64,000 nt of DNA from Candidatus Nomurabacteria bacterium (GTDB lineage: Bacteria; Patescibacteriota; Minisyncoccia; Phycocordibacterales; UBA9973), in NCBI GenBank assembly GCA_016699085.1, contig CP064958.1, positions 345,375-409,374 of the forward strand, written 5' to 3'. Each line of letters begins with the position of its first letter. The stretch's first letter is position 1. The position numbers and the translations under genes are program-made. Positions 1 through 6,247 of the stretch are shown here, one piece after another. The notes under the pieces are model-generated. The model saw only the letters and a list, made by a program, of their open reading frames with translations, ran no database searches and was not told the DNA's origin.

Positions 1-76
1 CGTGAAACATATTTCATAAGTTACACATGAAACTTATCAATATTTTGAACATTATGTTACACGTGTAACAAATTAT

Positions 77-571
77 ATGAAAATACAAGCAGAGTACATT
101 GGCTACTCAAAAGTAAAATATATACTTGAATACGAAGACTGTGATGATTTTTCTATATTGCCATATGAAAAATGTACTCAGGTATATACGGTTTGTTTTA
201 ATGAAGACAAAATAATCATTGGATACGGCGGTCATAAAAATACATGGGGACTCATAGGGGGTACAATTGAGCCTGGTGAAACTTTTGAACAAACTTTAAT
301 TAGGGAAGTACAAGAAGAATCAAACCATAAACTACTAAAAATGTTACCCATAGGCTATCAAAAGGTGACGGACACAAGAGATAATTCCATTGTTTATCAA
401 TTGCGATATGTTTCATGTGGAACACCATACGGGCCTTTTATTTCAGATCCAGCGGGTACTATAACGCAAATAGCATGTATTGAACCATGTGACTATAAGA
501 AATATTTTGATTGGGGCAAAATTGGAGAGCGAATCATGCAACGAGCTGTAGAATTAAAAGATCAGCTTTAA
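77..571 (+). CDS. NUDIX hydrolase
   Basis: Nudix box-like GGTIEPGETFEQTLIREVQEESN (GX5EX7REVXEEXG pattern); 164 aa. Confidence 0.8.
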   Translation: MKIQAEYIGYSKVKYILEYEDCDDFSILPYEKCTQVYTVCFNEDKIIIGYGGHKNTWGLIGGTIEPGETFEQTLIREVQEESNHKLLKMLPIGYQKVTDTRDNSIVYQLRYVSCGTPYGPFISDPAGTITQIACIEPCDYKKYFDWGKIGERIMQRAVELKDQL

Positions 572-598
572 ATCTGTTAGTGTGACAGATATCTAAGT

Positions 599-988
599 AT
601 GCCAAAAGTATTTACATCAAAAAGCCAAAAAATTGGAGAACTAGGTGAAGATATAGCTTGTAAGTATCTTACTAAGCACGAGTATACTATTTCGGAGCGA
701 AACTATACAAAAAAATGGGGTGAAATAGATATTGTAGCTCAAAAAGGCCAAAAAATTTACTTTGTTGAGGTAAAATCTCAGAATCAAGTGGGTGTTACAC
801 ATGAAACTATTCGTCCAGAAGAAAATATGCATCCCAAGAAATTACAGAGGCTCTCTCGAACGATTCAGACGTATGTCCTTGAGAAAACGAGTGGGGAAGT
901 TGATTGGCAATTTGATCTTATTGTTGTCCTTTTGAATGAAAACAAAAAGACAGCCCATGTACGTCGCATAGAAAATATTATTTTGTAA
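599..988 (+). CDS. YraN/UPF0102 family endonuclease-like protein
   Basis: GELGEDIACKYL ... WGEIDIVA ... FVEVKSQ motifs typical of YraN family; 129 aa. Confidence 0.7.
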   Translation: MPKVFTSKSQKIGELGEDIACKYLTKHEYTISERNYTKKWGEIDIVAQKGQKIYFVEVKSQNQVGVTHETIRPEENMHPKKLQRLSRTIQTYVLEKTSGEVDWQFDLIVVLLNENKKTAHVRRIENIIL

Positions 989-1034
989 ATTTGACAAAAT
1001 ATAAATTTTCTTATATAAAGATAAAAACTTTTGT

Positions 1035-1493
1035 ATGTTCTACACTTTGCTTCTTTTTATGGCAGCATTACAAAATGTGCCAATTCAGATTCCATTAGAT
1101 GCAGCAAGACCAGTGGCAATTCTTGACAGTGTGCAATTGAAGCGGTTGCACAAGGGACGTTTTGATGACACAAAAGTAAATCGTTTAGATGGAAACCTGT
1201 ACGTACGGTTTCAAGATAAAAATATTTATTTTTTCGACAAGGATAATCTTAATGCAACTCTTTCCAAAGAAGGGAAGTTACTGCAGGTGCTTATATGGAA
1301 AGATACTGTTTTATACAGCTATGTGTATTTGGATTCGTTGAGTGAGATTGGTGTAATGATGACCTATACAAAAGATAAGGAATTTATATCAGGGGGAGAA
1401 ATTCCTGCAAACGAATCTTTGAGGGTTGTGTATCCAATTATTAAGGTCAGATTTGATTCAATAAAAATATTTACTTCAGGTTCAAAAAAATGA
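1035..1493 (+). CDS. hypothetical protein
   Basis: ORF with hydrophobic N-terminus, followed by terminator hairpin; no recognisable domain. Confidence 0.4.
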   Translation: MFYTLLLFMAALQNVPIQIPLDAARPVAILDSVQLKRLHKGRFDDTKVNRLDGNLYVRFQDKNIYFFDKDNLNATLSKEGKLLQVLIWKDTVLYSYVYLDSLSEIGVMMTYTKDKEFISGGEIPANESLRVVYPIIKVRFDSIKIFTSGSKK

Positions 1494-1505
1494 TACAGCA
1501 CAAGG

Positions 1506-1535
1506 AAAGGCGACCATAAGTCGCTTTTTTATTTT
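1506..1535 (+). terminator. rho-independent terminator (GGCGAC-cataa-GTCGC + T-run)
   Basis: GC hairpin followed by TTTTTTATTTTTT immediately after ORF 1035-1493. Confidence 0.6.
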
Positions 1536-1628
1536 TTCTATTATTGTAAATAACATTGTATTTGAAGGGGAATATGCTAGGATAGGGAAGTTCAGTTTTT
1601 AATTCGTAATTCTTAATTTTAATTGATT

Positions 1629-1756
1629 TCGGGGTGTGGTCCGCCAGTGGTCGGGTAAATGTAACGGCTAATCACGACTACGCTTGCGCTCCGCTGGACT
1701 GTGATTTCTACAGTTTCTTTGAAACTAAGAAATCGGGAGCATTCCTGTTTTGGGGA
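1629..1756 (+). repeat. disrupted tRNA-Pro 5'-half pseudocopy (fragments separated by insertions)
   Basis: tcggggtgtggt (1629-1640) = first 12 nt of tRNA-Pro, then 20-nt insertion, then gtaacggctaa, later attcctgttttgggga at 1741-1756 matching the anticodon arm. Confidence 0.55.
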
Positions 1757-1777
1757 TACAATTCTTTTCATACCAAT
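1757..1777. repeat. 21-bp perfect inverted repeat, left arm (tacaattcttttcataccaat)
   Basis: exact reverse complement of 1883-1903; flanks the intact tRNA-Pro. Confidence 0.8.
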
Positions 1778-1797
1778 AAGATTTTTGAGATATGAGT

Positions 1798-1870
1798 CGG
1801 GGTGTGGTGTAACGGCTAACATTCCTGTTTTGGGAACAGGCGACTCAGGGTTCGAATCCCTGCACCCCGA
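1798..1870 (+). tRNA. tRNA-Pro (anticodon UGG)
   Basis: Manual fold: 7-bp acceptor CGGGGTG/CACCCCG, D-arm, anticodon stem CCTGT/ACAGG with loop TTTGGGA (UGG), T-arm CAGGG-TTCGAAT-CCCTG, discriminator A; no encoded CCA. Confidence 0.9.
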
Positions 1871-1882
1871 CCCATATCTTAA

Positions 1883-1903
1883 ATTGGTATGAAAAGAATT
1901 GTA
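1883..1903. repeat. 21-bp perfect inverted repeat, right arm (attggtatgaaaagaattgta)
   Basis: exact reverse complement of 1757-1777. Confidence 0.8.
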
Positions 1904-1945
1904 TCCGGAGATTTGGGAAATCTCCGTGGCATTTTATAAAAATGA

Positions 1946-1974
1946 GGCGACTCAGGGTTCGAACCACTCCCGAC
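1946..1974 (+). repeat. degenerate tRNA-Pro 3'-half pseudocopy
   Basis: GGCGACTCAGGGTTCGAA identical to tRNA-Pro positions 43-60, then diverges (CCACTCCCGAC). Confidence 0.55.
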
Positions 1975-2024
1975 AAAAGCAAAGCTTGTGTGGAAACGAT
2001 AATTTTAAATTTCCAAATAACTAT

Positions 2025-2369
2025 ATGGATGAGCAAAAAAATGTGCCTATGCCAATACAAGTTTCTAAGCTACAAGGATTTATTGACTTCATCCGGGAGC
2101 AGGGAGTTGTTGGTCTTGCGATCGGTTTTATTTTAGGTGGCGCAGTATCAAAAATTGTTGGGTCTTTGGTAGATAATGTTATCAATCCGATCGTCGGGAT
2201 TATTCTCGGTAAAGTTGATCTTGCTGAACGCATGATTACTATTGGACAGGCAAGCATTAAATGGGGAGCATTCGTCTCGTCAATTATTGATTTTGTCGTT
2301 ATTGCTGCAGTCGTTTATTTTGGATTTAAGATGCTTGGACTCGAAAAACTAGATAGGAAGAAAGAATAA
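2025..2369 (+). CDS. mscL: large-conductance mechanosensitive channel MscL
   Basis: GFIDFIREQGVVGLAIGFILGGAVSKIVGSLVDNVINPIVG ... KMLGLEKLDRKKE matches MscL TM1/TM2 architecture; start chosen at 2025 (alt 2049). The track ORF from 1899 reads through tRNA-fragment DNA and is too long. Confidence 0.8.
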   Translation: MDEQKNVPMPIQVSKLQGFIDFIREQGVVGLAIGFILGGAVSKIVGSLVDNVINPIVGIILGKVDLAERMITIGQASIKWGAFVSSIIDFVVIAAVVYFGFKMLGLEKLDRKKE

Positions 2370-2372
2370 TTT

Positions 2373-2444
2373 GCCTTCGTAGTTCAATGGATAGAACGCA
2401 AGTTTCCGGAACTTGTAATATAGGTTCGATTCCTGTCGAAGGCA
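2373..2444 (+). tRNA. tRNA-Arg (anticodon CCG)
   Basis: Manual fold: acceptor GCCTTCG/CGAAGGC, D-arm GTTC-AATGGATA-GAAC, anticodon stem CAAGT/ACTTG with loop TTCCGGA, T-arm ATAGG-TTCGATT-CCTGT, discriminator A. Confidence 0.85.
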
Positions 2445-2528
2445 CACAAAGAGTTTTGTGTGCGCCAGGAATCGAATGGAGTTTCGTTATCGAGTTTACG
2501 AGATCGAAACTCACCTGCGGCAGTTGCC

Positions 2529-2547
2529 GAGATTCCTGTCGAAGGCA
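2529..2547 (+). repeat. direct duplicate of tRNA-Arg 3' end (gattcctgtcgaaggcaca)
   Basis: 19-nt exact copy of 2428-2446, 100 bp downstream; enclosed in a larger hairpin CAGGAATCG ... GATTCCTG with internal 8-bp stem GAGTTTCG/CGAAACTC. Confidence 0.7.
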
Positions 2548-2592
2548 CAGATGCATTTTCTATGATTTTTTGCTATTGTGTGAGCATTCACT

Positions 2593-2663
2593 GCGGGATT
2601 AGTTAAATGGTATAACTCTAGTTTTCCAAACTAGTGTCGGGAGTTCGATTCTCCCATCCCGCA
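2593..2663 (+). tRNA. tRNA-Gly (anticodon UCC)
   Basis: Manual fold: acceptor GCGGGAT/ATCCCGC, D-arm GTTA-AATGGTA-TAAC, anticodon stem CTAGT/ACTAG with loop TTTCCAA, T-arm GGGAG-TTCGATT-CTCCC, discriminator A. Confidence 0.9.
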
Positions 2664-2677
2664 CAAACTTGCTATAT

Positions 2678-2768
2678 CTGGCAATTACTCGAACTCCTTT
2701 AATAATACGCCTTATTTATCAACAAGAACTGAATTTTGATTACTAGTATTTAGTTCGATTCCACGATG
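2678..2768 (+). repeat. island end-repeat A, copy 1 (~90 bp)
   Basis: ggcaaTtactcgaactcCTttaATaatacgccttatttatcaa ... tagttcgattcca aligns with copy 2 at 3872-3963; contains tRNA T-arm-like TAGTTCGATTCCA. Confidence 0.7.
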
Positions 2769-2786
2769 GTTTAATAATCTTAAATT

Positions 2787-3443
2787 ATGAAATGCTATTT
2801 ATGTTTAAAAGAAATAATGAATGAAAAAGTATCGAGGGATCACGTACCAGCGCGAAATATTTTTCCTGAACCAAAGCCATCAAACTTAATGACACTTCCA
2901 ACCCACTTAATATGTAACCAAGAGTATTCAGATGATGAGGAAATATTTAGGACTGATATTGTTTCAATAGCAGATATTGAAAATAATCCAAGCGCTAAAA
3001 ATGTCTGGGAAAAAGTAAAAAGAAGTCATGATAAAAATCCAAATAAACAAATAGAAATGTTTTCAAGGATTGAGTTTATTAATATAAAAGACCACAGAAT
3101 TCCTCAGCTGAAATTATCAGAAGAAAGAACAAAGAGAGTTATTACTAAAATAGCAAAAGGACTATATAATAAGCGCACAGGAAATTTTATAGATAATTTA
3201 TATGAAATAAAGATACATTTCCAACCAGTAGAATTTATACCTGATTTATTAAAAAAGCTCAATATAAAGGAACTTTCACTGATACTTTTTCCTATGCAGG
3301 CGCCGTCTCAAAAAGTGGGTCAATTTGGTGGATGGTTTTCTATAAACGAATTGCTGCTATTGTTAGTTTCTGGAATGAAGAGATGGAAAAGGAAACTCAA
3401 TCAGTCTAAGCTTGTGAAAATAATAATCTATTATAAAATTTGA
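2787..3443 (+). CDS. hypothetical protein with N-terminal HNH-like motif
   Basis: N-terminus MKCYLCLKEIMNEKVSRDHVPARNIFPE (C-x2-C ... DHVP, HNH ββα-Me-like) and THLICNQE; rest of the 218 aa unrecognised. Confidence 0.45.
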   Translation: MKCYLCLKEIMNEKVSRDHVPARNIFPEPKPSNLMTLPTHLICNQEYSDDEEIFRTDIVSIADIENNPSAKNVWEKVKRSHDKNPNKQIEMFSRIEFINIKDHRIPQLKLSEERTKRVITKIAKGLYNKRTGNFIDNLYEIKIHFQPVEFIPDLLKKLNIKELSLILFPMQAPSQKVGQFGGWFSINELLLLLVSGMKRWKRKLNQSKLVKIIIYYKI

Positions 3444-3458
3444 TATACTGGGTCTACT

Positions 3459-3782
3459 ATGCCAATGATAAATGTCGAATATGATAGTAATCTGGTTCCT
3501 GAACCGGATATTCAGTCCCTATCGGAAGCTATAAGGGATATTGTATCTAATGTTACAGGAATTGAAGATGTCTTTACATATGCGAATTCTGCAAGGATCA
3601 AAATTAAGATTGCTCCAATTGAAATTTTTGTCCGCATGACAGATAAGAAAATAAAAGACGAAGACGCTTTAGTGAATGACATCAAATTAAAGCTAAAGGA
3701 ATGGAAAGTAGCAAGTAATTTCCAATATCCTATTAATCTCACTTTAATACCTATGAATTGGAAGGTAGAAATAGGCATTTAA
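3459..3782 (+). CDS. hypothetical protein
   Basis: 107-aa ORF immediately downstream of the HNH-like ORF inside module 1 of the tRNA-Gly island. Confidence 0.4.
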   Translation: MPMINVEYDSNLVPEPDIQSLSEAIRDIVSNVTGIEDVFTYANSARIKIKIAPIEIFVRMTDKKIKDEDALVNDIKLKLKEWKVASNFQYPINLTLIPMNWKVEIGI

Positions 3783-3789
3783 TGTAAAG

Positions 3790-3852
3790 TAGGAATATGT
3801 ATATAAGCATCATATTTTTTCTGAAACACGGTTCGAACATCCTGCACGGTGG
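3790..3852 (+). repeat. island end-repeat B, copy 1
   Basis: gaaacacggttcgaacatcctgcacggtgg (3823-3852) is 30/30 identical to 4913-4942; upstream ~30 nt also similar; starts right after the stop of ORF 3459-3782. Confidence 0.75.
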
Positions 3853-3871
3853 TTGCACAAAGTTACCACTT

Positions 3872-3963
3872 ATGGCAAGTACTCGAACTCACTTATAAAA
3901 TAGCCTTATTTATCAAAAATAAATCACCAAGTAAATAAGATTCTTAGTTCGATTCCATAAGGG
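3872..3963 (+). repeat. island end-repeat A, copy 2
   Basis: aligns with 2678-2768 (~80% identity), same TACTCGAACTC ... CCTTATTTATCAA ... TAGTTCGATTCCA landmarks. Confidence 0.7.
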
Positions 3964-3993
3964 AATGTTTTGCTTGGTGTAACAAATAGTTAA

Positions 3994-4548
3994 ATGCAAT
4001 CAGACAAGCAAAAAGGAAAATTTCTATCAAAACTCCAGATTGTTTCTATGGAACAAAGAATTAAGGGGGCTTTAGAATATCATTTCTTTAGATATCAGAC
4101 TTTAGAAAAAGAGGGGCATCCTGTTGATTTGGCAGGCAATTTTAAGTCAGACAATGAACGGTCTGAAGCCGCCAGAAATGAAATTAAGTATGAATTAGCG
4201 GCATATCTTAATCAGTTAGGAGCTTTTTACCATTTCATTTGCTCTCAAGATGTTACACAACCCGTAGACCCTGATTTAAAAGAAACTTGGTATGATTTAC
4301 ATAAAAATGGGGTACTCCATTTTATGGACAATAAGTGGTCTGGACACCGTTCTGTAGATTGTCCCAAGAAAGAAGATAGTGATTCAGTCCACACACAAAT
4401 AATGTTTTTTGATGTTGGTGCAACTACTTGGAATGGCGAGCACTTTATGGTAAACATTCACGAGAAGTCCCTAGATCTTTGTGACCTGCATCCGAAAATT
4501 AAGAAATTTATAAACTGGGCTTTTAAGGAAATTAATAAAAAAGCCTGA
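3994..4548 (+). CDS. hypothetical protein
   Basis: 184-aa ORF, first gene of module 2; no recognisable domain. Confidence 0.4.
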   Translation: MQSDKQKGKFLSKLQIVSMEQRIKGALEYHFFRYQTLEKEGHPVDLAGNFKSDNERSEAARNEIKYELAAYLNQLGAFYHFICSQDVTQPVDPDLKETWYDLHKNGVLHFMDNKWSGHRSVDCPKKEDSDSVHTQIMFFDVGATTWNGEHFMVNIHEKSLDLCDLHPKIKKFINWAFKEINKKA

Positions 4549-4612
4549 GAATAGAAGGAATGATTGTATCTACAATCTTCATCTACAAGAAAACCAAATT
4601 TATTTACTACCG

Positions 4613-4882
4613 ATGAAGTACTTATTAATAATTCTATTGATTGCGGCTGGATTTTGGATTTTTCACAAAAAAGACGTTTGGGAAGGATTTTATTATCCAA
4701 ATGGTTGTTTAAGTTGTGCTGAAAACTATATCTATAGTCCAAAATTTGAAACAAAAGAGGAATGTTTTGATTGGGCAGATTCCATAAAAATTTCTAGAAA
4801 TAATCCCGACGATTTATTCGAATGTGGCTTAAACTGTAAATATAAAGATGGATTTAATGTTTGTGAGGAAACTGTAGATTAG
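4613..4882 (+). CDS. small Cys-rich membrane-anchored/secreted hypothetical protein
   Basis: N-terminal hydrophobic helix MKYLLIILLIAAGFWIF, six Cys in 89 aa. Confidence 0.4.
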   Translation: MKYLLIILLIAAGFWIFHKKDVWEGFYYPNGCLSCAENYIYSPKFETKEECFDWADSIKISRNNPDDLFECGLNCKYKDGFNVCEETVD

Positions 4883-4942
4883 GAATGTGGATGTATTCAT
4901 TATTTCTTGTTAGAAACACGGTTCGAACATCCTGCACGGTGG
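4879..4942 (+). repeat. island end-repeat B, copy 2
   Basis: 30-nt perfect match to 3823-3852 plus similar upstream flank; starts right after the stop of ORF 4613-4882. Confidence 0.75.
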
Positions 4943-4995
4943 TGCACATAAAACACTTGACCTGGATGTAAAGCATTCAGGTTTTAGTGTTTTAC

Positions 4996-5011
4996 TGCGG
5001 ATGGAGAATCG
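4996..5011 (-). repeat. inverted copy of tRNA-Gly 3' end (T-loop/acceptor fragment)
   Basis: tgcggatggagaatcg is the reverse complement of cgattctccatccgca, i.e. tRNA-Gly cgattctcccatcccgca minus 2 nt. Confidence 0.55.
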
Positions 5012-5094
5012 AAAGACGGAGGCCGCGAAGCCGTCCGAAGGACGTGGCCGAGTCGGGGTCGAGAAATTTTTATGCAATAAAAAATATTCGTGAC

Positions 5095-5136
5095 CGATTC
5101 TCCTCCGCCAAAGGTCGGACAAGCATCCCGCACAAA
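5095..5136 (+). repeat. direct copy of tRNA-Gly 3' end with 21-nt internal insertion (putative attR of the island)
   Basis: cgattctcc[tccgccaaaggtcggacaagc]atcccgcacaaa versus tRNA-Gly 2643-2669 cgattctcccatcccgcacaaa. Confidence 0.7.
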
Positions 5137-5330
5137 ATAAAAATTCCCTCGAAAGGGAATTTTTTACATGATTTTTCCTAAGAAATTAGAATGATGATTT
5201 TTGATAAATTGTTTCCGAATATAATAACGTCGGGCTTTTCTTCGAAAACAATTAATAATTGTAGGTTCTTTTCCATGCTAAGTAATTATTTCTCATACTA
5301 TACCACATCAATTAATTTTAAGCAAATAAA

Positions 5331-5350
5331 ATCCCGAACAAAGTCGGGAT
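5331..5350 (-). terminator. rho-independent terminator for the minus-strand gene 5365-5820
   Basis: ATCCCGA-acaaag-TCGGGAT hairpin with T-run on the minus strand. Confidence 0.55.
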
Positions 5351-5364
5351 AATAAAATTTTTCT

Positions 5365-5820
5365 TTATAAACATACAGCACGATATTGTATCTTGTCGAT
5401 GTTCACTTCCGGTTGAACTCCATGATCAATATTTAAATAATAGGTAACCATTGACTGAATTTGAGCCAGGGTCTTGTCACTTTTCTTGCCGTTTTCTTCA
5501 ATACTGATGCCATTAGTCGTGCCGGTACTACAGTCTACTTTAACTGTATATATACGTTCGCATTCACTAAAATAAAAAATTGATGTTCCGGCATCACCAG
5601 AATCAGTATTCATTATGAGTCCGTGGCTCTCAACAAAATTAACGAATCTTTCCCCGCAGTCCTGATTCGTCGTTCTGAAACTTACAAACGACGGGGTGCA
5701 TGTAGGGAAGAACTCCCTCTCTTTTGCTGTTGCATTTGTTTGTGCGTATGTTTGTGTTGTCAAAATGAAGGTACTCATGAGTACCAAGAGTAGTAGTTTC
5801 ATAGTGCAGTTTTTCTCCAC
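5365..5820 (-). CDS. secreted hypothetical protein
   Basis: signal peptide MKLLLLVLMSTFILTTQTYA; several Cys; no known domain. Confidence 0.5.
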   Translation of the reverse strand: MEKNCTMKLLLLVLMSTFILTTQTYAQTNATAKEREFFPTCTPSFVSFRTTNQDCGERFVNFVESHGLIMNTDSGDAGTSIFYFSECERIYTVKVDCSTGTTNGISIEENGKKSDKTLAQIQSMVTYYLNIDHGVQPEVNIDKIQYRAVCL

Positions 5821-5862
5821 TATACTCGCTTGTATGAGATTTGCAATAGTTTGCAGGCAAAG

Positions 5863-5892
5863 AAAAAATCCGGGGATAGGACCGGATTTTTT
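5863..5892. terminator. bidirectional rho-independent terminator downstream of hup
   Basis: AAAAAATCCGG-ggatagga-CCGGATTTTTT. Confidence 0.7.
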
Positions 5893-5974
5893 CTTATATA
5901 TTTTTTTCTCGAGAAAAAAATTATTTGTCCTTCGAGATACTCAGGATAAATAATCCTAGTTTTTTTCAAAGGAA

Positions 5975-6247
5975 TTATTTAACTGCGTCCTTAAATGCTT
6001 TTGCTGCGCGGAATTTTGGAACTTTGACTGCAGCAACTTTGACTTGCTCACCAGTCTTTGGATTTCTAGCCATGCGCGCTGCGCGCTGTTTGACTGAGAA
6101 GATGCCGAGGCCAGCGATAGATACCTCATCTCCCTTTTTCAAGGTTGAAATGATCGCATCAATCAAGCCATCAACAATTTCTTCAGCGGCAACTTTGGTG
6201 CCGCCAATCTTTCCATGAACCCATTCTACGAGTGCTTGTTTATTCAT
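5975..6247 (-). CDS. hup: DNA-binding protein HU
   Basis: MNKQALVE ... GLGIFSVKQRAARMARNPKTGEQVKV ... RAAKAFKDAV: canonical HU/IHF fold, 90 aa. Confidence 0.92.
   Translation of the reverse strand: MNKQALVEWVHGKIGGTKVAAEEIVDGLIDAIISTLKKGDEVSIAGLGIFSVKQRAARMARNPKTGEQVKVAAVKVPKFRAAKAFKDAVK

What the first reader, a model, noticed from the sequence alone, without database searches (positions are those of the whole stretch)
1629..1974. tRNA-Pro gene nested between perfect 21-bp inverted repeats inside a shattered older tRNA-Pro copy
The intact tRNA-Pro(UGG) at 1798-1870 is bracketed by an exact 21-bp inverted repeat (1757-1777 tacaattcttttcataccaat / 1883-1903 attggtatgaaaagaattgta). This would put the pre-tRNA at the tip of a 21-bp leader-trailer duplex (an RNase III-type processing stem) or make it the cargo of an IR-bounded 147-bp unit.

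Outside that unit there are additional pieces of tRNA-Pro:
- the first 12 nt plus D-arm (1629-1670, split by a 20-nt insertion);
- part of the anticodon arm (1741-1756);
- 18 nt of the T-arm (1946-1963), followed by divergent sequence.

So a second, disrupted tRNA-Pro copy appears to surround the intact one. Either an IR-flanked tRNA-bearing element inserted into a resident tRNA-Pro, or the locus records repeated integration/excision scars.
Basis: seen in the sequence. Interest (0 to 1): 0.6.

Follow-up and report, generated by a model that had tools for sequence, protein, structure and literature searches.

The report
Proline tRNA nested inside broken copy
A working proline-tRNA gene sits on a long hairpin stem inside the anticodon loop of an older, now broken proline-tRNA gene; the same arrangement recurs in related ultra-small (CPR) bacteria and is conserved like a functional RNA, which points to an undescribed way for a tRNA gene to be split and replaced.

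Summary
Four exact, colinear tRNA-Pro fragments (12, 12, 15 and 19 nt) surround it.

It is not a private scar. The sister species has the same 532-bp region at 92-94% identity, where neutral sites are about 64% identical. Four other Patescibacteria lineages (L109, L125, L140, L103) carry homologous nests behind the same promoter. In each, the outer copy breaks right after position 37 and a related leader follows. In L125 the outer gene is a different, still intact tRNA-Pro type. It refolds into a cloverleaf once its 157-nt insert is removed. The leader-trailer helix covaries.

Best reading: an old insertion carrying a complete tRNA-Pro split a resident tRNA-Pro at the canonical intron site. 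The broken host gene now serves as the structured leader and trailer of one precursor.

It is not a MITE: no target duplication, no other copies, arms not conserved. It is not a group I or bulge-helix-bulge intron. No integrase is nearby. The insertion mechanism is unknown. Verdict: a new variant of a known kind, of moderate to high interest.

The parts
1573..1583 (+). Extended -10 promoter-like motif TATGCTAGGAT (consensus TRTGnTAnnnT)
   Evidence: It is the only such motif on the + strand between 1400 and 2570. The same motif lies 12-47 nt upstream of plain tRNA-Pro genes and of the OUTER copy in every nest locus (read). The function is inferred.
1584..1628 (+). AT-rich 5' leader of the transcription unit
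   Evidence: It belongs to a 96-nt block (1544-1639) that is 100% identical in the sister species L003, although four-fold degenerate sites are only 50-70% identical.
1629..1640 (+). Outer tRNA-Pro fragment 1 (tRNA positions -1 to 11: acceptor 5' strand and start of the D-stem)
   Evidence: Exact 12-nt direct repeat of 1797-1808 (family D14). Predicted to pair with 1963-1973.
1641..1659 (+). Mini-insert of about 20 nt, a hairpin motif CCGCCAGTGGTCGGGTAAA, splitting the outer D-stem between positions 11 and 12
   Evidence: The motif CCGCCANNGGNCGG recurs at the same site in the L109 nest and inside a displaced tRNA-Gly 3' fragment at window 5105. Chance expectation is 0.13 per window.
1660..1671 (+). 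Outer tRNA-Pro fragment 2 (positions 11-22, D-loop)
   Evidence: Exact 12-nt direct repeat of 1808-1819 (family D15).
1672..1739 (+). 68-nt insert between outer positions 22 and 23. It pairs with the mini-insert and holds a hairpin (about 1702-1735)
   Evidence: Predicted folds. 89.7% identical in L003. L003's changes at 1710 and 1720 fall in a predicted bulge and loop.
1740..1754 (+). Outer tRNA-Pro fragment 3 (positions 23-37: anticodon stem 5' strand and loop up to G37)
   Evidence: Exact 15-nt direct repeat of 1820-1834 (family D9). The outer copy also ends after position 37 in L109, L125, L140 and L103.
1754..1777 (+). Left arm of the perfect 24-bp inverted repeat (distal leader-trailer helix)
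   Evidence: 24 of 24 identical in L003.
1778..1797 (+). Internal loop plus proximal leader. Positions 1784-1797 pair with 1870-1883 and extend the acceptor stem
   Evidence: (inverted repeat I2). Covariation across window, L003, L125 and L103. The leader resembles that of the other nests.
1798..1870 (+). Intact inner tRNA-Pro(UGG), 'type A'
   Evidence: ARAGORN. Rfam 61.9 bits. 100% identical in L003, L109 and L102.
1871..1882 (+). Proximal trailer, pairing with the proximal leader
   Evidence: In L003 the C1872-to-T change turns the only A/C mismatch into an A-U pair.
1883..1906 (+). Right arm of the 24-bp inverted repeat
   Evidence: One change in L003, giving an A/C mismatch.
1907..1925 (+). 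Hairpin GGAGATTTGGGAAATCTCC
   Evidence: Folds. A hairpin occupies the same place in the L125 trailer.
1930..1944 (+). AT hairpin CATTTTATAAAAATG, the 3' end of the 190-nt insert
   Evidence: Alignable with GCGGAAATTTTTATCAAAAA at the 3' end of the L125 insert. Predicted hairpin.
1945..1963 (+). Outer tRNA-Pro fragment 4 (positions 41-59: end of the anticodon stem, variable loop, T-stem 5' strand and T-loop)
   Evidence: Exact 19 nt, 22 of 24 over 1945-1968 (family D3). It is the least conserved fragment in L003, with 3 changes.
1963..1973 (+). Degenerate outer 3' end ACCACTCCCGA, which closes the whole unit by pairing with 1629-1640
   Evidence: An 11-bp helix with one bulge in the minimum-energy and centroid folds. 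Identical in L003.

Best explanation
The stretch from about 1573 to 1974 is one transcription unit. It was built when a segment of about 190 bp, carrying a complete tRNA-Pro(UGG) gene on a long leader-trailer helix, came to lie in the anticodon loop of a resident tRNA-Pro gene. The break is right after position 37, the canonical tRNA intron site.

The inner gene is the working tRNA and is read from the resident gene's promoter. The split resident gene can no longer make a tRNA. It lacks positions 38-40 and the T-stem 3' strand, and its D-stem carries two inserts. It survives as a structured 5' leader and 3' trailer.

Inferred, not shown: the 37-bp composite helix clamps the two ends of the inner tRNA together, so that the identical outer 5' fragments cannot mispair with the inner 3' half. 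The helix also offers a double-stranded RNA cut site (RNase III type) ahead of RNase P and 3' trimming.

The insert belongs to a family found at the same site in other Patescibacteria. Nests can collapse back to a plain gene by recombination between the outer and inner repeats. That would explain their patchy distribution and the clean swaps between two tRNA-Pro types at one promoter. How the segment first entered is not known.
For: Shown:
1. The anatomy and its statistical support.
2. One promoter. The extended -10 motif at 1573 is the only one before the unit. In all nest loci the outer copy starts where plain tRNA-Pro genes start relative to that motif and to the upstream UPF0102 gene.
3. 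L125. Its outer copy matches the plain 'type B' tRNA-Pro of its relative L139 at 35/36 (5' part) and 29/35 (3' part). Its inner gene is 'type A', one base different from the window's. Joining G37 to T38 restores a full cloverleaf that ARAGORN calls tRNA-Pro(UGG). The window's outer pieces joined give no tRNA.
4. Same site and homologous insert. The outer copy breaks after position 37 in window/L003, L109, L125, L140 and L103. A related leader follows (…TTTTTTGAAAnTTTCGT; 22-23 nt in L125, L109, L140) that none of the plain loci has. The window and L125 trailers align: stem strand, hairpin, then the GYGGMA…TTTTAT.AAAAA motif.
5. The helix is selected as a helix.
   - Duplex energy is -45.7 kcal/mol (z -12) in the window, -44.6 in L003, -35.8 in L125 and -27.1 in L103.
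   - The 15 plain loci give z from -1.7 to +1.6.
   - Over 16 pairs, 89% of cells pair against 69% in shuffles (0 of 500 reach it). Ten pairs change on both sides. Slid registers give 34-55%.
6. Constraint. Outer flanks are 94.1% (5') and 92.4% (3') identical to L003. Four-fold degenerate sites are 50-70% identical and other intergenic spacers 15-74%.
7. No known RNA family other than tRNA matches.

Inferred: the folding-clamp and RNase III role, loss by repeat recombination, and gene conversion keeping outer fragments identical to the inner gene. The conversion idea rests on two observations. Outer copies track lineage-specific inner variants in L103, L115 and L140. The L140 inner gene has an A4/C69 mismatch.
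Against: - No target-site duplication, recombinase, transposase or homing endonuclease is associated with the unit, so no insertion mechanism is demonstrated.
- Only L125 shows an outer gene clearly different from the inner one. Elsewhere outer and inner are the same type, which local duplication would also give.
- All nests may descend from a single ancient event, so recurrent insertion is not shown.
- L115 and L135 have only an upstream 5' half, broken at positions 33 and 35, without the shared leader or a helix.
- In L109 the best partner of the leader arm lies beyond the outer 3' end. Its downstream tRNA fragments look like the 3'-end units seen at other tRNAs.
- A dead host gene does not by itself explain 92-94% conservation, nor the 100% conserved 96 nt upstream.
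- The conservation test rests on a single species pair and the covariation on three lineages.
- There are no expression data.
Confidence: 0.55

Rival explanations
1. Composite scar of site-specific integrations. Integrase-driven elements that target tRNA genes entered and left or decayed at tRNA-Pro. They displaced the host 3' half downstream, and by a second event of opposite polarity the 5' half upstream. Only about 40-75 nt of each element remains.
For: - The neighbourhood is an integration hot spot. Of 128 distinct tRNA loci in these Patescibacteria contigs, 35 have an exact self-fragment of 11 nt or more within 300 nt.
- At tRNA-Gly and tRNA-Arg genes this is typically an inverted T-arm copy followed by an 18-21-nt direct repeat of the 3' end.
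- The window's tRNA-Arg carries such a 103-nt unit, which L003 lacks.
- tRNA-Gly is followed by a 2.4-kb island ending in a displaced 3' end.
- The window's downstream fragment (positions 41-59) and the L109 downstream pieces fit a displaced 3' half.
Against: - Elements known to integrate in tRNA genes replace the 3' part (established knowledge; Williams 2002, from memory). Upstream 5' halves are not expected from them.
- A crossover inside the tRNA would give hybrid genes (5'B-3'A … 5'A-3'B). L125 instead shows B5'-[complete A]-B3'.
- Break points on the two sides are complementary: 37|38 in L125 and 37|41 in the window.
- The shared leader and the covarying helix point to one inserted unit.
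- No integrase lies nearby.
Confidence: 0.17
2. Purely local rearrangement. Tandem and inverted duplications of the resident tRNA-Pro arose from replication slippage or template switching at its hairpins. Decay followed, and gene conversion between copies kept them alike. No mobile or foreign DNA was involved.
For: - In the window, L003, L109, L140, L103 and L115 the outer fragments are identical or nearly identical to the inner gene of the same lineage, including lineage-specific anticodon-stem or acceptor variants.
- A perfect 24-bp inverted repeat is what an inverted duplication would create.
- Partial nests with only a 5' half exist (L115, L135, L140).
Against: - The L125 outer and inner genes are of different types.
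- The non-tRNA leader is homologous across lineages whose UPF0102 proteins are only 43-58% identical to one another. Independent local events would not produce that.
- The nested order, 5' half then full gene then 3' half with complementary break points, needs three copies and two precise deletions under a tandem model.
- Helix arms differ in sequence between lineages but keep pairing.
Confidence: 0.12
3. A functional tRNA-derived regulatory or scaffold RNA. The outer shell is kept because the folded leader and trailer do something of their own. Candidate roles are control of tRNA-Pro maturation, acting as the 5' UTR of the downstream mscL gene, or acting as a decoy for a tRNA-binding factor. 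This is compatible with any origin, including the best explanation.
For: - Conservation is 92-94% against about 64% at neutral sites, with a 96-nt block at 100%.
- The whole unit folds far better than shuffles (z -8.6 and -7.1), with a closing helix 1629-1640 / 1963-1973.
- The scan found no terminator-like site between the unit and mscL.
- Several L003 substitutions fall in predicted loops or bulges, or improve pairing (one search compared).
Against: - Only one species pair is available for the conservation test.
- L115 and L135, whose UPF0102 proteins are 91% identical, have unalignable outer and leader regions.
- Many relatives do without any shell.
- No compensatory double change is seen within the outer shell itself.
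Confidence: 0.12
4. A true tRNA intron. The outer halves are spliced into a second tRNA-Pro while the inner tRNA is released from the intron.
For: - The break is at the canonical 37/38 site in five lineages.
- The L125 outer gene is an intact cloverleaf once joined.
- An A-run that could pair with U32-U34 precedes the 3' junction in both the window and L125 (read).
Against: - In the window and L003 the joined outer pieces give no tRNA. Positions 38-40 and the T-stem 3' strand are missing.
- There is no group I intron signal.
- There is no bulge-helix-bulge geometry. The helix starts at G37 and is separated from the 3' junction by about 38 nt in the window and 33 nt in L125 (inspection).
- Bacteria are not known to have the splicing endonuclease (established knowledge).
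Confidence: 0.04

Closest known systems
Integrative elements (genomic islands, prophages) that insert into tRNA genes and restore them
   Same: The target is a tRNA gene at a 7-nt loop flanked by a stem. The incoming DNA supplies tRNA sequence so that function is kept. Displaced tRNA fragments are left behind. Neighbouring tRNA-Arg and tRNA-Gly genes in this window show the classical 3'-end direct repeats.
   Different: Here a complete tRNA gene, not just a 3' part, lies inside the split target, and the host 5' half is also displaced. The insert is only 157-190 nt. No integrase or core direct repeat is present.
Archaeal and eukaryal tRNA introns and split tRNA genes (bulge-helix-bulge type, e.g. 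Nanoarchaeum split tRNAs)
   Same: The interruption is exactly after position 37. A long helix formed by the two ends of the intervening sequence abuts the anticodon loop. Additional small inserts lie at non-canonical positions of the outer copy (D-stem), recalling multi-intron archaeal tRNAs (review PMC4090602, abstract seen).
   Different: The host is a bacterium. No bulge-helix-bulge motif is present. The exons no longer form a tRNA in the window. The 'intron' contains a full tRNA of the same isoacceptor.
Group I introns in bacterial tRNA anticodon loops (tRNA-Leu(UAA), tRNA-fMet, tRNA-Ile, tRNA-Arg)
   Same: These are bacterial insertions of about 200 nt in a tRNA anticodon loop.
   Different: No group I core is found: there is no Rfam hit at E up to 5. 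Apart from the embedded tRNA and the stems, too little sequence remains for a ribozyme.
Leader-trailer processing stems of rRNA operons (RNase III substrates)
   Same: A long duplex (24 + 13 bp) is formed by sequences flanking a stable RNA, and the mature RNA sits at its tip. Pairing is conserved while sequence is not.
   Different: To my knowledge such stems are not described around single bacterial tRNA genes. In this family they occur only in the nested loci. Cleavage has not been tested.
Dada DNA transposons of fish, which insert specifically into tRNA and snRNA genes
   Same: They are insertions specific for small-RNA genes, a target choice that limits harm (abstract of PMC8869645).
   Different: They are eukaryotic, encode a transposase, and rely on multicopy targets rather than carrying a replacement gene. 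No homology was tested or is expected.
MITEs (miniature inverted-repeat transposable elements)
   Same: A small non-coding unit is bounded by inverted repeats.
   Different: There is no target-site duplication and no second copy. The arms are not conserved among homologous units but covary as a helix.

Membership tests
Bacterial tRNA gene (inner copy, tRNA-Pro UGG) | Cloverleaf recognised by tRNA models, with anticodon UGG | tested here: met
   ARAGORN. Rfam RF00005 scores 61.9 bits against a gathering score of 29.
Functional tRNA gene (outer copy, after removing the inserts) | The joined pieces fold into a cloverleaf | tested here: not met
   The window's outer pieces joined give 0 genes in ARAGORN. 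The L125 outer joined gives tRNA-Pro(UGG).
MITE / IR-bounded transposon | Terminal inverted repeats | tested here: met
   A 24-bp perfect inverted repeat.
MITE / IR-bounded transposon | Target-site duplication flanking the repeats | tested here: not met
   The junctions TTTTGGG|GATACA and AAAAATG|AGGCGA share no repeat. The same holds in L125.
MITE / IR-bounded transposon | Multiple copies with conserved ends | tested here: not met
   The window holds only the two arms. Hits in viral contigs are single, chance-like 17-mers. Arms differ between homologous nests. The rest of the 808-kb genome could not be searched.
Group I intron in a tRNA | Group I catalytic core | tested here: not met
   No Rfam match other than tRNA at E up to 5 in 1500-2700, or at E up to 1 in five nest loci.
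Bulge-helix-bulge tRNA intron | Position 37/38 | tested here: met
   The outer copy ends after G37 in window/L003, L109, L125, L140 and L103.
Bulge-helix-bulge tRNA intron | Two 3-nt bulges separated by a 4-bp helix at the splice sites | tested here: not met
   By inspection only. The helix starts at G37 and the 3' junction is 33-38 nt away from the helix. No program was run.
Bulge-helix-bulge tRNA intron | A splicing endonuclease and ligase in the genome | not testable with these tools
   Only 64 kb of the genome is available.
Integrase-mediated tRNA-targeted island | Direct repeat of the tRNA 3' part at the far end | tested here: inconclusive
   A 19-nt copy of positions 41-59 lies 75 nt downstream. 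However, 5' fragments also lie upstream, and the unit is only 74 nt long.
Integrase-mediated tRNA-targeted island | An integrase gene within the element | tested here: not met
   There is no coding capacity between the fragments. Neighbouring ORFs have housekeeping Pfam families or none.
RNase III-type leader-trailer processing stem | A conserved duplex of 20 bp or more formed by the flanks of a stable RNA | tested here: met
   Duplex energy -45.7 kcal/mol, z -12. Covariation is seen on the 16-bp proximal part of the helix.
RNase III-type leader-trailer processing stem | Cleavage by RNase III in vivo | not testable with these tools
   This needs RNA end mapping.

The most novel reading that the evidence does not exclude
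A bacterial, intron-like 'selfish tRNA'. This would be a small non-coding element that homes into the canonical 37/38 site of tRNA-Pro genes in CPR bacteria. It carries its own tRNA-Pro on a processing helix, rides on the host promoter and thereby replaces the resident gene. Plain loci of the incoming type would be collapsed nests. In young nests such as L125, both tRNAs might even be produced from one precursor.
Probability: 0.15. Interest if true: 0.85.

Novelty: new variant of a known kind. Interest (0 to 1): 0.65.

Why it matters
tRNA genes are classic landing sites for mobile DNA. In the known cases the incoming DNA repairs the 3' end of its target. Here a whole replacement gene sits inside the target at the very position where archaeal and eukaryal tRNA introns lie, in bacteria, which are known to have only group I introns in tRNAs.

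If the insertion reading holds, three things follow:
- It gives a route for swapping one tRNA allele for another without ever losing function.
- It explains why two tRNA-Pro types alternate behind one promoter in close relatives.
- It offers a natural example of a tRNA matured from the tip of a long duplex.

There is also a practical point. Nests like this break assemblies and are invisible to tRNA finders, so they may be under-counted in CPR genomes.

Tried and rejected
- **IR as a repeated mobile end.** There is no other copy in the window. A 17-mer scan of viral contigs gave 18 single, chance-like hits. Rejected.
- **Synteny through MscL in species-representative genomes.** Only the sister species has the nest. 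L010 has a plain gene on the other strand and L009 has none. This was useful only as a negative.
- **The hypothetical 152-aa neighbour as an anchor.** Only two clusters exist in the whole protein collection, so the window's clade has just two sampled species.
- **ARAGORN with long introns allowed.** It reported no outer genes, so I joined the pieces by hand instead. The junctions used were partly wrong and were corrected.
- **Known RNA families, including group I introns and ribozymes.** None matched.
- **Phage carriage of the type A tRNA-Pro.** No hit in viral contigs.
- **Integrase or transposase near the locus.** None found.
- **Literature on nested or intron-bearing tRNAs in CPR bacteria.** Nothing relevant.
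- **L147.** It might have been another nest but holds a 100-N scaffold gap exactly there.
- **An early reading corrected.** I first read the L140 and L103 outer copies as extending to position 43. Alignment A8 shows the break after position 37 and a homologous leader instead.
- **Failed scripts.** The first two regular expressions used to locate the tRNAs failed and were fixed.
Full report
**Source and context.** The window comes from a Candidatus Nomurabacteria (CPR/Patescibacteria) genome. The 152-aa protein next to the finding is named that way by NCBI and sits on an 808-kb contig. The surroundings are ordinary chromosome:
- upstream: a NUDIX protein, UPF0102/YraN and the 152-aa hypothetical protein
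- downstream: MscL, tRNA-Arg(CCG) and tRNA-Gly(UCC)
- further on: HU, a TrmB-like regulator, RNase Y, ClpP, trigger factor, pyrophosphatase and NusA

No recombinase or transposase lies nearby.

**Check of the observation.** tRNA-Pro(UGG) is real (ARAGORN; Rfam 61.9 bits at 1798-1870).
- The inverted repeat is perfect over 24 nt, at 1754-1777 / 1883-1906, not 21. It has no other copy in the window even with three mismatches, and none arises in shuffles.
- A second helix, 1784-1804 / 1863-1883, links leader and trailer to the acceptor stem. The tRNA therefore sits at the tip of a composite stem of about 37 bp (-88.3 kcal/mol, z -9.1).
- The outer fragments are exact and colinear: 1629-1640 (tRNA positions -1 to 11), 1660-1671 (11-22), 1740-1754 (23-37) and 1945-1963 (41-59).
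- In 5000 shuffles of the flanks only 20 produced even one exact match of 11 nt or more, and none longer than 14 nt.
- Contigs from two other sequencing runs are identical as far as they reach, that is through the outer 5' pieces, the left IR arm and the start of the inner tRNA. The sister species shows the whole arrangement, including the 3' part. The arrangement is therefore unlikely to be an assembly artefact.

**State of the outer copy.** It cannot make a tRNA.
- It lacks positions 38-40 and the T-stem 3' strand.
- Its D-stem is split by a 20-nt hairpin between positions 11 and 12, and by a 68-nt insert between positions 22 and 23.
- Joined by hand, its pieces are not recognised as a tRNA.
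- Its two ends still pair: 1629-1640 with 1963-1973, 11 bp with one bulge. The whole 346-nt unit folds far better than shuffles (z -8.6; z -7.1 with flanks).

**Sister species.** L003/L008 (GCA_964563615.1) shares the gene order and a 532-bp intergenic region with every element in place. Identity figures:

| Region | Identity to L003 |
|---|---|
| Flanks of the inner tRNA, 5' side | 94.1% |
| Flanks of the inner tRNA, 3' side | 92.4% |
| 1544-1639 (96 nt) | 100% |
| Neighbouring genes, nucleotide level | 74-91% |
| Four-fold degenerate sites | 50-70% |
| Other intergenic spacers | 15-74% |

The shell is therefore as conserved as first and second codon positions. Among the few changes, one turns the only mismatch of the proximal helix into an A-U pair, one puts an A/C mismatch into the 24-bp repeat, and several fall in predicted loops. 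There is thus no presence/absence polymorphism at this distance, and the shell is not drifting neutrally.

**Wider relatives.**
- Anchoring on MscL in species-representative genomes found the nest only in the sister species. L010 has a plain tRNA-Pro on the other strand.
- Anchoring on the 3' end of the tRNA itself in metagenome contigs gave 42 loci. About two dozen of them hold the same kind of tRNA-Pro.
- Most of these loci also keep UPF0102 next to the tRNA, so they are orthologous loci.
- Full or partial nests occur in L109, L125, L103, L115/L118 and L135, and in L140/L141, found through UPF0102 homologues.
- By UPF0102 identity, nest-bearing lineages are scattered among plain ones. The window's nearest plain relatives are at about 60%, L109 at 55% and L125 at 51%. 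L125's relatives at 76-81% are plain.

**The key locus is L125.** Two tRNA-Pro(UGG) types exist in this group:
- type A: the window's inner gene
- type B: found in L010, L139 and L144, with a different D-arm and T-stem

In L125 the outer copy is type B. It matches plain L139 at 35/36 in its 5' part and 29/35 in its 3' part, and it sits behind the same promoter region as plain L144. The inner gene is type A, one base different from the window's. Removing the 157 nt between G37 and T38 restores a cloverleaf that ARAGORN calls tRNA-Pro(UGG).

A crossover inside two tRNA genes would give hybrids, not B5'-[A]-B3'. This looks like an insertion of a segment that contains a whole gene.

**Same site, related insert.**
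- Alignment A8 shows plain B (L144), plain A (L142), a partial nest (L140) and the full nest (L125) behind the same UPF0102 end and the same extended -10 motif. The outer copy starts exactly where plain genes start.
- In window/L003, L109, L125, L140 and L103 the outer copy breaks right after position 37. A related T-rich leader ending in …GAAAnTTTCGT follows. It is 22-23 nt in three of them and longer in the window and L103.
- None of the plain loci has this leader.
- The window and L125 trailers also align: stem strand, a hairpin, then a GYGGMA…TTTTAT.AAAAA motif.
- The window and L109 share the odd 20-nt mini-insert in the outer D-stem.

The nests therefore share ancestry. Whether by descent, by exchange between relatives or by repeated insertion cannot be told from this sample.

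**The helix.**

| Locus | Leader-trailer duplex |
|---|---|
| window | -45.7 kcal/mol, z -12 |
| L003 | -44.6 kcal/mol |
| L125 | -35.8 kcal/mol |
| L103 | -27.1 kcal/mol |
| 15 plain loci | z -1.7 to +1.6 |

L109, L115, L135 and L140 also show no significant duplex within 45 nt.

In ungapped register with the tRNA ends, 16 pairs are 89% paired against 69% in shuffles (0 of 500 reach it). Ten pairs change on both sides, and slid registers give 34-55%. The arms are unrelated in sequence between lineages. This is the signature of a selected helix, in RNA or in folded single-stranded DNA. It is not the signature of protein-binding terminal repeats.

**Transcription.** A motif TRTGnTAnnnT (extended -10 type) lies 12-22 nt upstream of plain tRNA-Pro genes and 12-47 nt upstream of the outer copy in nests (read). 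In the window it occurs at 1573. It does not recur until 2571, just before tRNA-Gly. The scan saw a terminator at 1504-1530, after the 152-aa gene, and none between the unit and mscL. I infer one transcript that starts near 1590, carries the outer 5' pieces, the inner tRNA and the outer 3' pieces, and may run on into mscL.

**Best explanation (confidence 0.55).** A resident tRNA-Pro gene was split after position 37 by a short segment that brought a full tRNA-Pro on a leader-trailer helix.
- The inner gene took over.
- The host gene decayed, and its remains became a constrained, structured leader and trailer.
- The helix plausibly keeps the inner tRNA's ends together in the presence of identical competing 5' fragments, and provides a double-strand cut site. 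This step is inferred.
- Direct repeats between outer and inner copies allow collapse to a plain gene at the native promoter distance. That would explain the patchy distribution and the clean A/B swaps (L142 versus L144). This step is also inferred.
- Outer copies follow lineage-specific variants of the inner gene, and the L140 inner gene carries an A4/C69 mismatch. This points to gene conversion between the copies.

**What argues against it.**
- No insertion mechanism is visible.
- Only L125 has clearly different outer and inner types.
- L115 and L135 have only an upstream half, broken at positions 33 and 35, with no shared leader.
- The best helix partner in L109 lies beyond the outer 3' end.
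- The strength of conservation suggests a function for the shell that I cannot name.

**Rivals.**
- *Integration scars (0.17).* This fits the neighbourhood. Many tRNA-Gly and tRNA-Arg genes in these contigs are followed by an inverted T-arm copy, hairpins and an 18-21-nt direct repeat of the 3' end. The window's tRNA-Arg has such a 103-nt unit that the sister species lacks. It does not explain upstream 5' halves or L125.
- *Local duplication with gene conversion (0.12).* This fits the identity of outer and inner copies. It does not fit L125 or the shared non-tRNA leader.
- *A functional tRNA-derived RNA (0.12).* This is compatible with any origin and is suggested by the conservation.
- *A true spliced intron (0.04).* This is excluded for the window by the missing segments. 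It remains conceivable only for L125.

**Comparison with what is known.**
- It works like a tRNA-targeting insertion that compensates for the damage it does. It looks like an intron at 37/38.
- It is not a member of the MITEs (no target duplication, no copies, arms not conserved), of group I introns (no core) or of bulge-helix-bulge introns (no motif by inspection; exons dead in the window).
- It is not shown to be an integrase-borne island, because no integrase is present.
- Full-text searches found no description of a bacterial tRNA gene nested in another tRNA gene. That is absence of evidence in the held library only.

**Verdict.** However, the unit is old, conserved and helix-selected rather than a recently mobile IR element. 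It is a new variant of known kinds (tRNA-targeted insertion, 37/38 intervening sequence). It recurs in CPR bacteria and has clear experiments that would settle it.

Noticed in passing
window 2428-2549 (tRNA-Arg(CCG) 2373-2445): A 103-nt unit follows tRNA-Arg. It has a hairpin, an inverted copy of the T-arm (2463-2476), a second hairpin (2479-2512) and a 19-nt direct repeat of the tRNA 3' end (2428-2446 / 2531-2549). The sister species L003 lacks it entirely, so it was gained or precisely lost since the two species split.
   Followed up: partly
Many loci, e.g. L003 4497-4680 and 7433-7690; L109 5199-5390; L114, L115, L118, L099, L010, L102, L105: Downstream of tRNA-Gly(GCC/UCC) and tRNA-Arg(UCG/CCG) genes there is a recurrent architecture. 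It runs: inverted copy of the tRNA's own T-arm or 3' end (often split by a hairpin), then a structured spacer, then an 18-21-nt direct repeat of the tRNA 3' end. The spacer comes in a short form (long hairpin + ACCTG) and a long form (CGGAG … CGAGGCGGGGTCGCG). Of 128 distinct tRNA loci, 35 have an exact self-fragment of 11 nt or more within 300 nt. It could be a family of miniature integrated elements or a tRNA-linked RNA structure. It is not in Rfam.
   Followed up: partly
window 2665-5133: An island of about 2.4 kb lies between tRNA-Gly(UCC) (2593-2664) and its displaced 3' end (5095-5133, preceded by an inverted T-arm copy at 5003-5013). It holds four ORFs with no Pfam match (2787-3443, 3459-3782, 3994-4548, 4613-4882). 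It also has internal tandem structure: a 68-nt repeat at 2661-2728 / 3855-3922 and a tRNA-3'-like piece at about 3827-3860 and 4917-4945. The sister species has only about 170 nt there.
   Followed up: partly
window 1641-1659 and 5104-5123; L109 7036-7055: A 20-nt hairpin motif, CCGCCA(NN)GG(N)CGG(N)(Y)AA, is found only inside broken tRNA pieces. It occurs in the D-stem of the outer tRNA-Pro (window and L109) and in the displaced tRNA-Gly 3' fragment of the window. L003 lacks it at the orthologous tRNA-Gly site. Two exact matches are seen against 0.13 expected per window. Its origin and meaning are unknown.
   Followed up: partly
L115 vs L135; L139 vs L144; L105/L112 vs L098; L099; L010: The promoter-plus-tRNA-Pro cassette points in opposite directions relative to UPF0102 (or MscL) in closely related genomes. 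For example, the UPF0102 proteins of L115 and L135 are 91% identical. The cassette is therefore inverted often.
   Followed up: partly
L142/L145 vs L144 (alignment A8): Two different tRNA-Pro(UGG) types (A and B) occupy exactly the same position behind the same promoter in relatives whose UPF0102 proteins are each 76% identical to that of L125. This is a clean allele swap.
   Followed up: partly
L140 2038-2111: The inner tRNA-Pro of this partial nest has the acceptor 5' strand CGGAGTG but the 3' strand CACCCCG, giving an A4/C69 mismatch. Its plain relative L142 has the matching CACTCCG. This suggests gene conversion from the outer 5' copy, or a hybrid gene.
   Followed up: no
window 1544-1639: 96 nt upstream of the outer copy (promoter region and AT-rich leader) are 100% identical in the sister species, although neutral sites are about 36% diverged. 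The constraint goes beyond a promoter.
   Followed up: no
window, 21 sites, e.g. 1573, 14039, 16138, 40092, 54858: An extended -10-like motif TRTGnTAnnnT occurs 11 times on the + strand and 10 times on the - strand of the window. It precedes tRNA-Pro genes in all relatives, so it is probably the main promoter signal of this lineage.
   Followed up: no
window 599-988 and all related loci: UPF0102/YraN, a predicted nuclease, is linked to tRNA-Pro across the whole family. A preprint reports YraN as part of D-loop resolution in natural transformation (bioRxiv 10.1101/2024.02.06.579203; abstract seen). Whether the linkage means anything for the nest is unknown.
   Followed up: no
window 1-6000: The first 6 kb (tRNA cluster and island) have a G+C content of 0.34-0.36, against about 0.38-0.44 for the rest of the window.
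   Followed up: no
L147 1698-1797: A 100-N scaffold gap sits exactly inside the tRNA-Pro locus of this genome, between tRNA position 15 and position 41. Contigs L001 and L002 also end inside the inner tRNA. Nested loci seem to break assemblies and may be under-reported.
   Followed up: no
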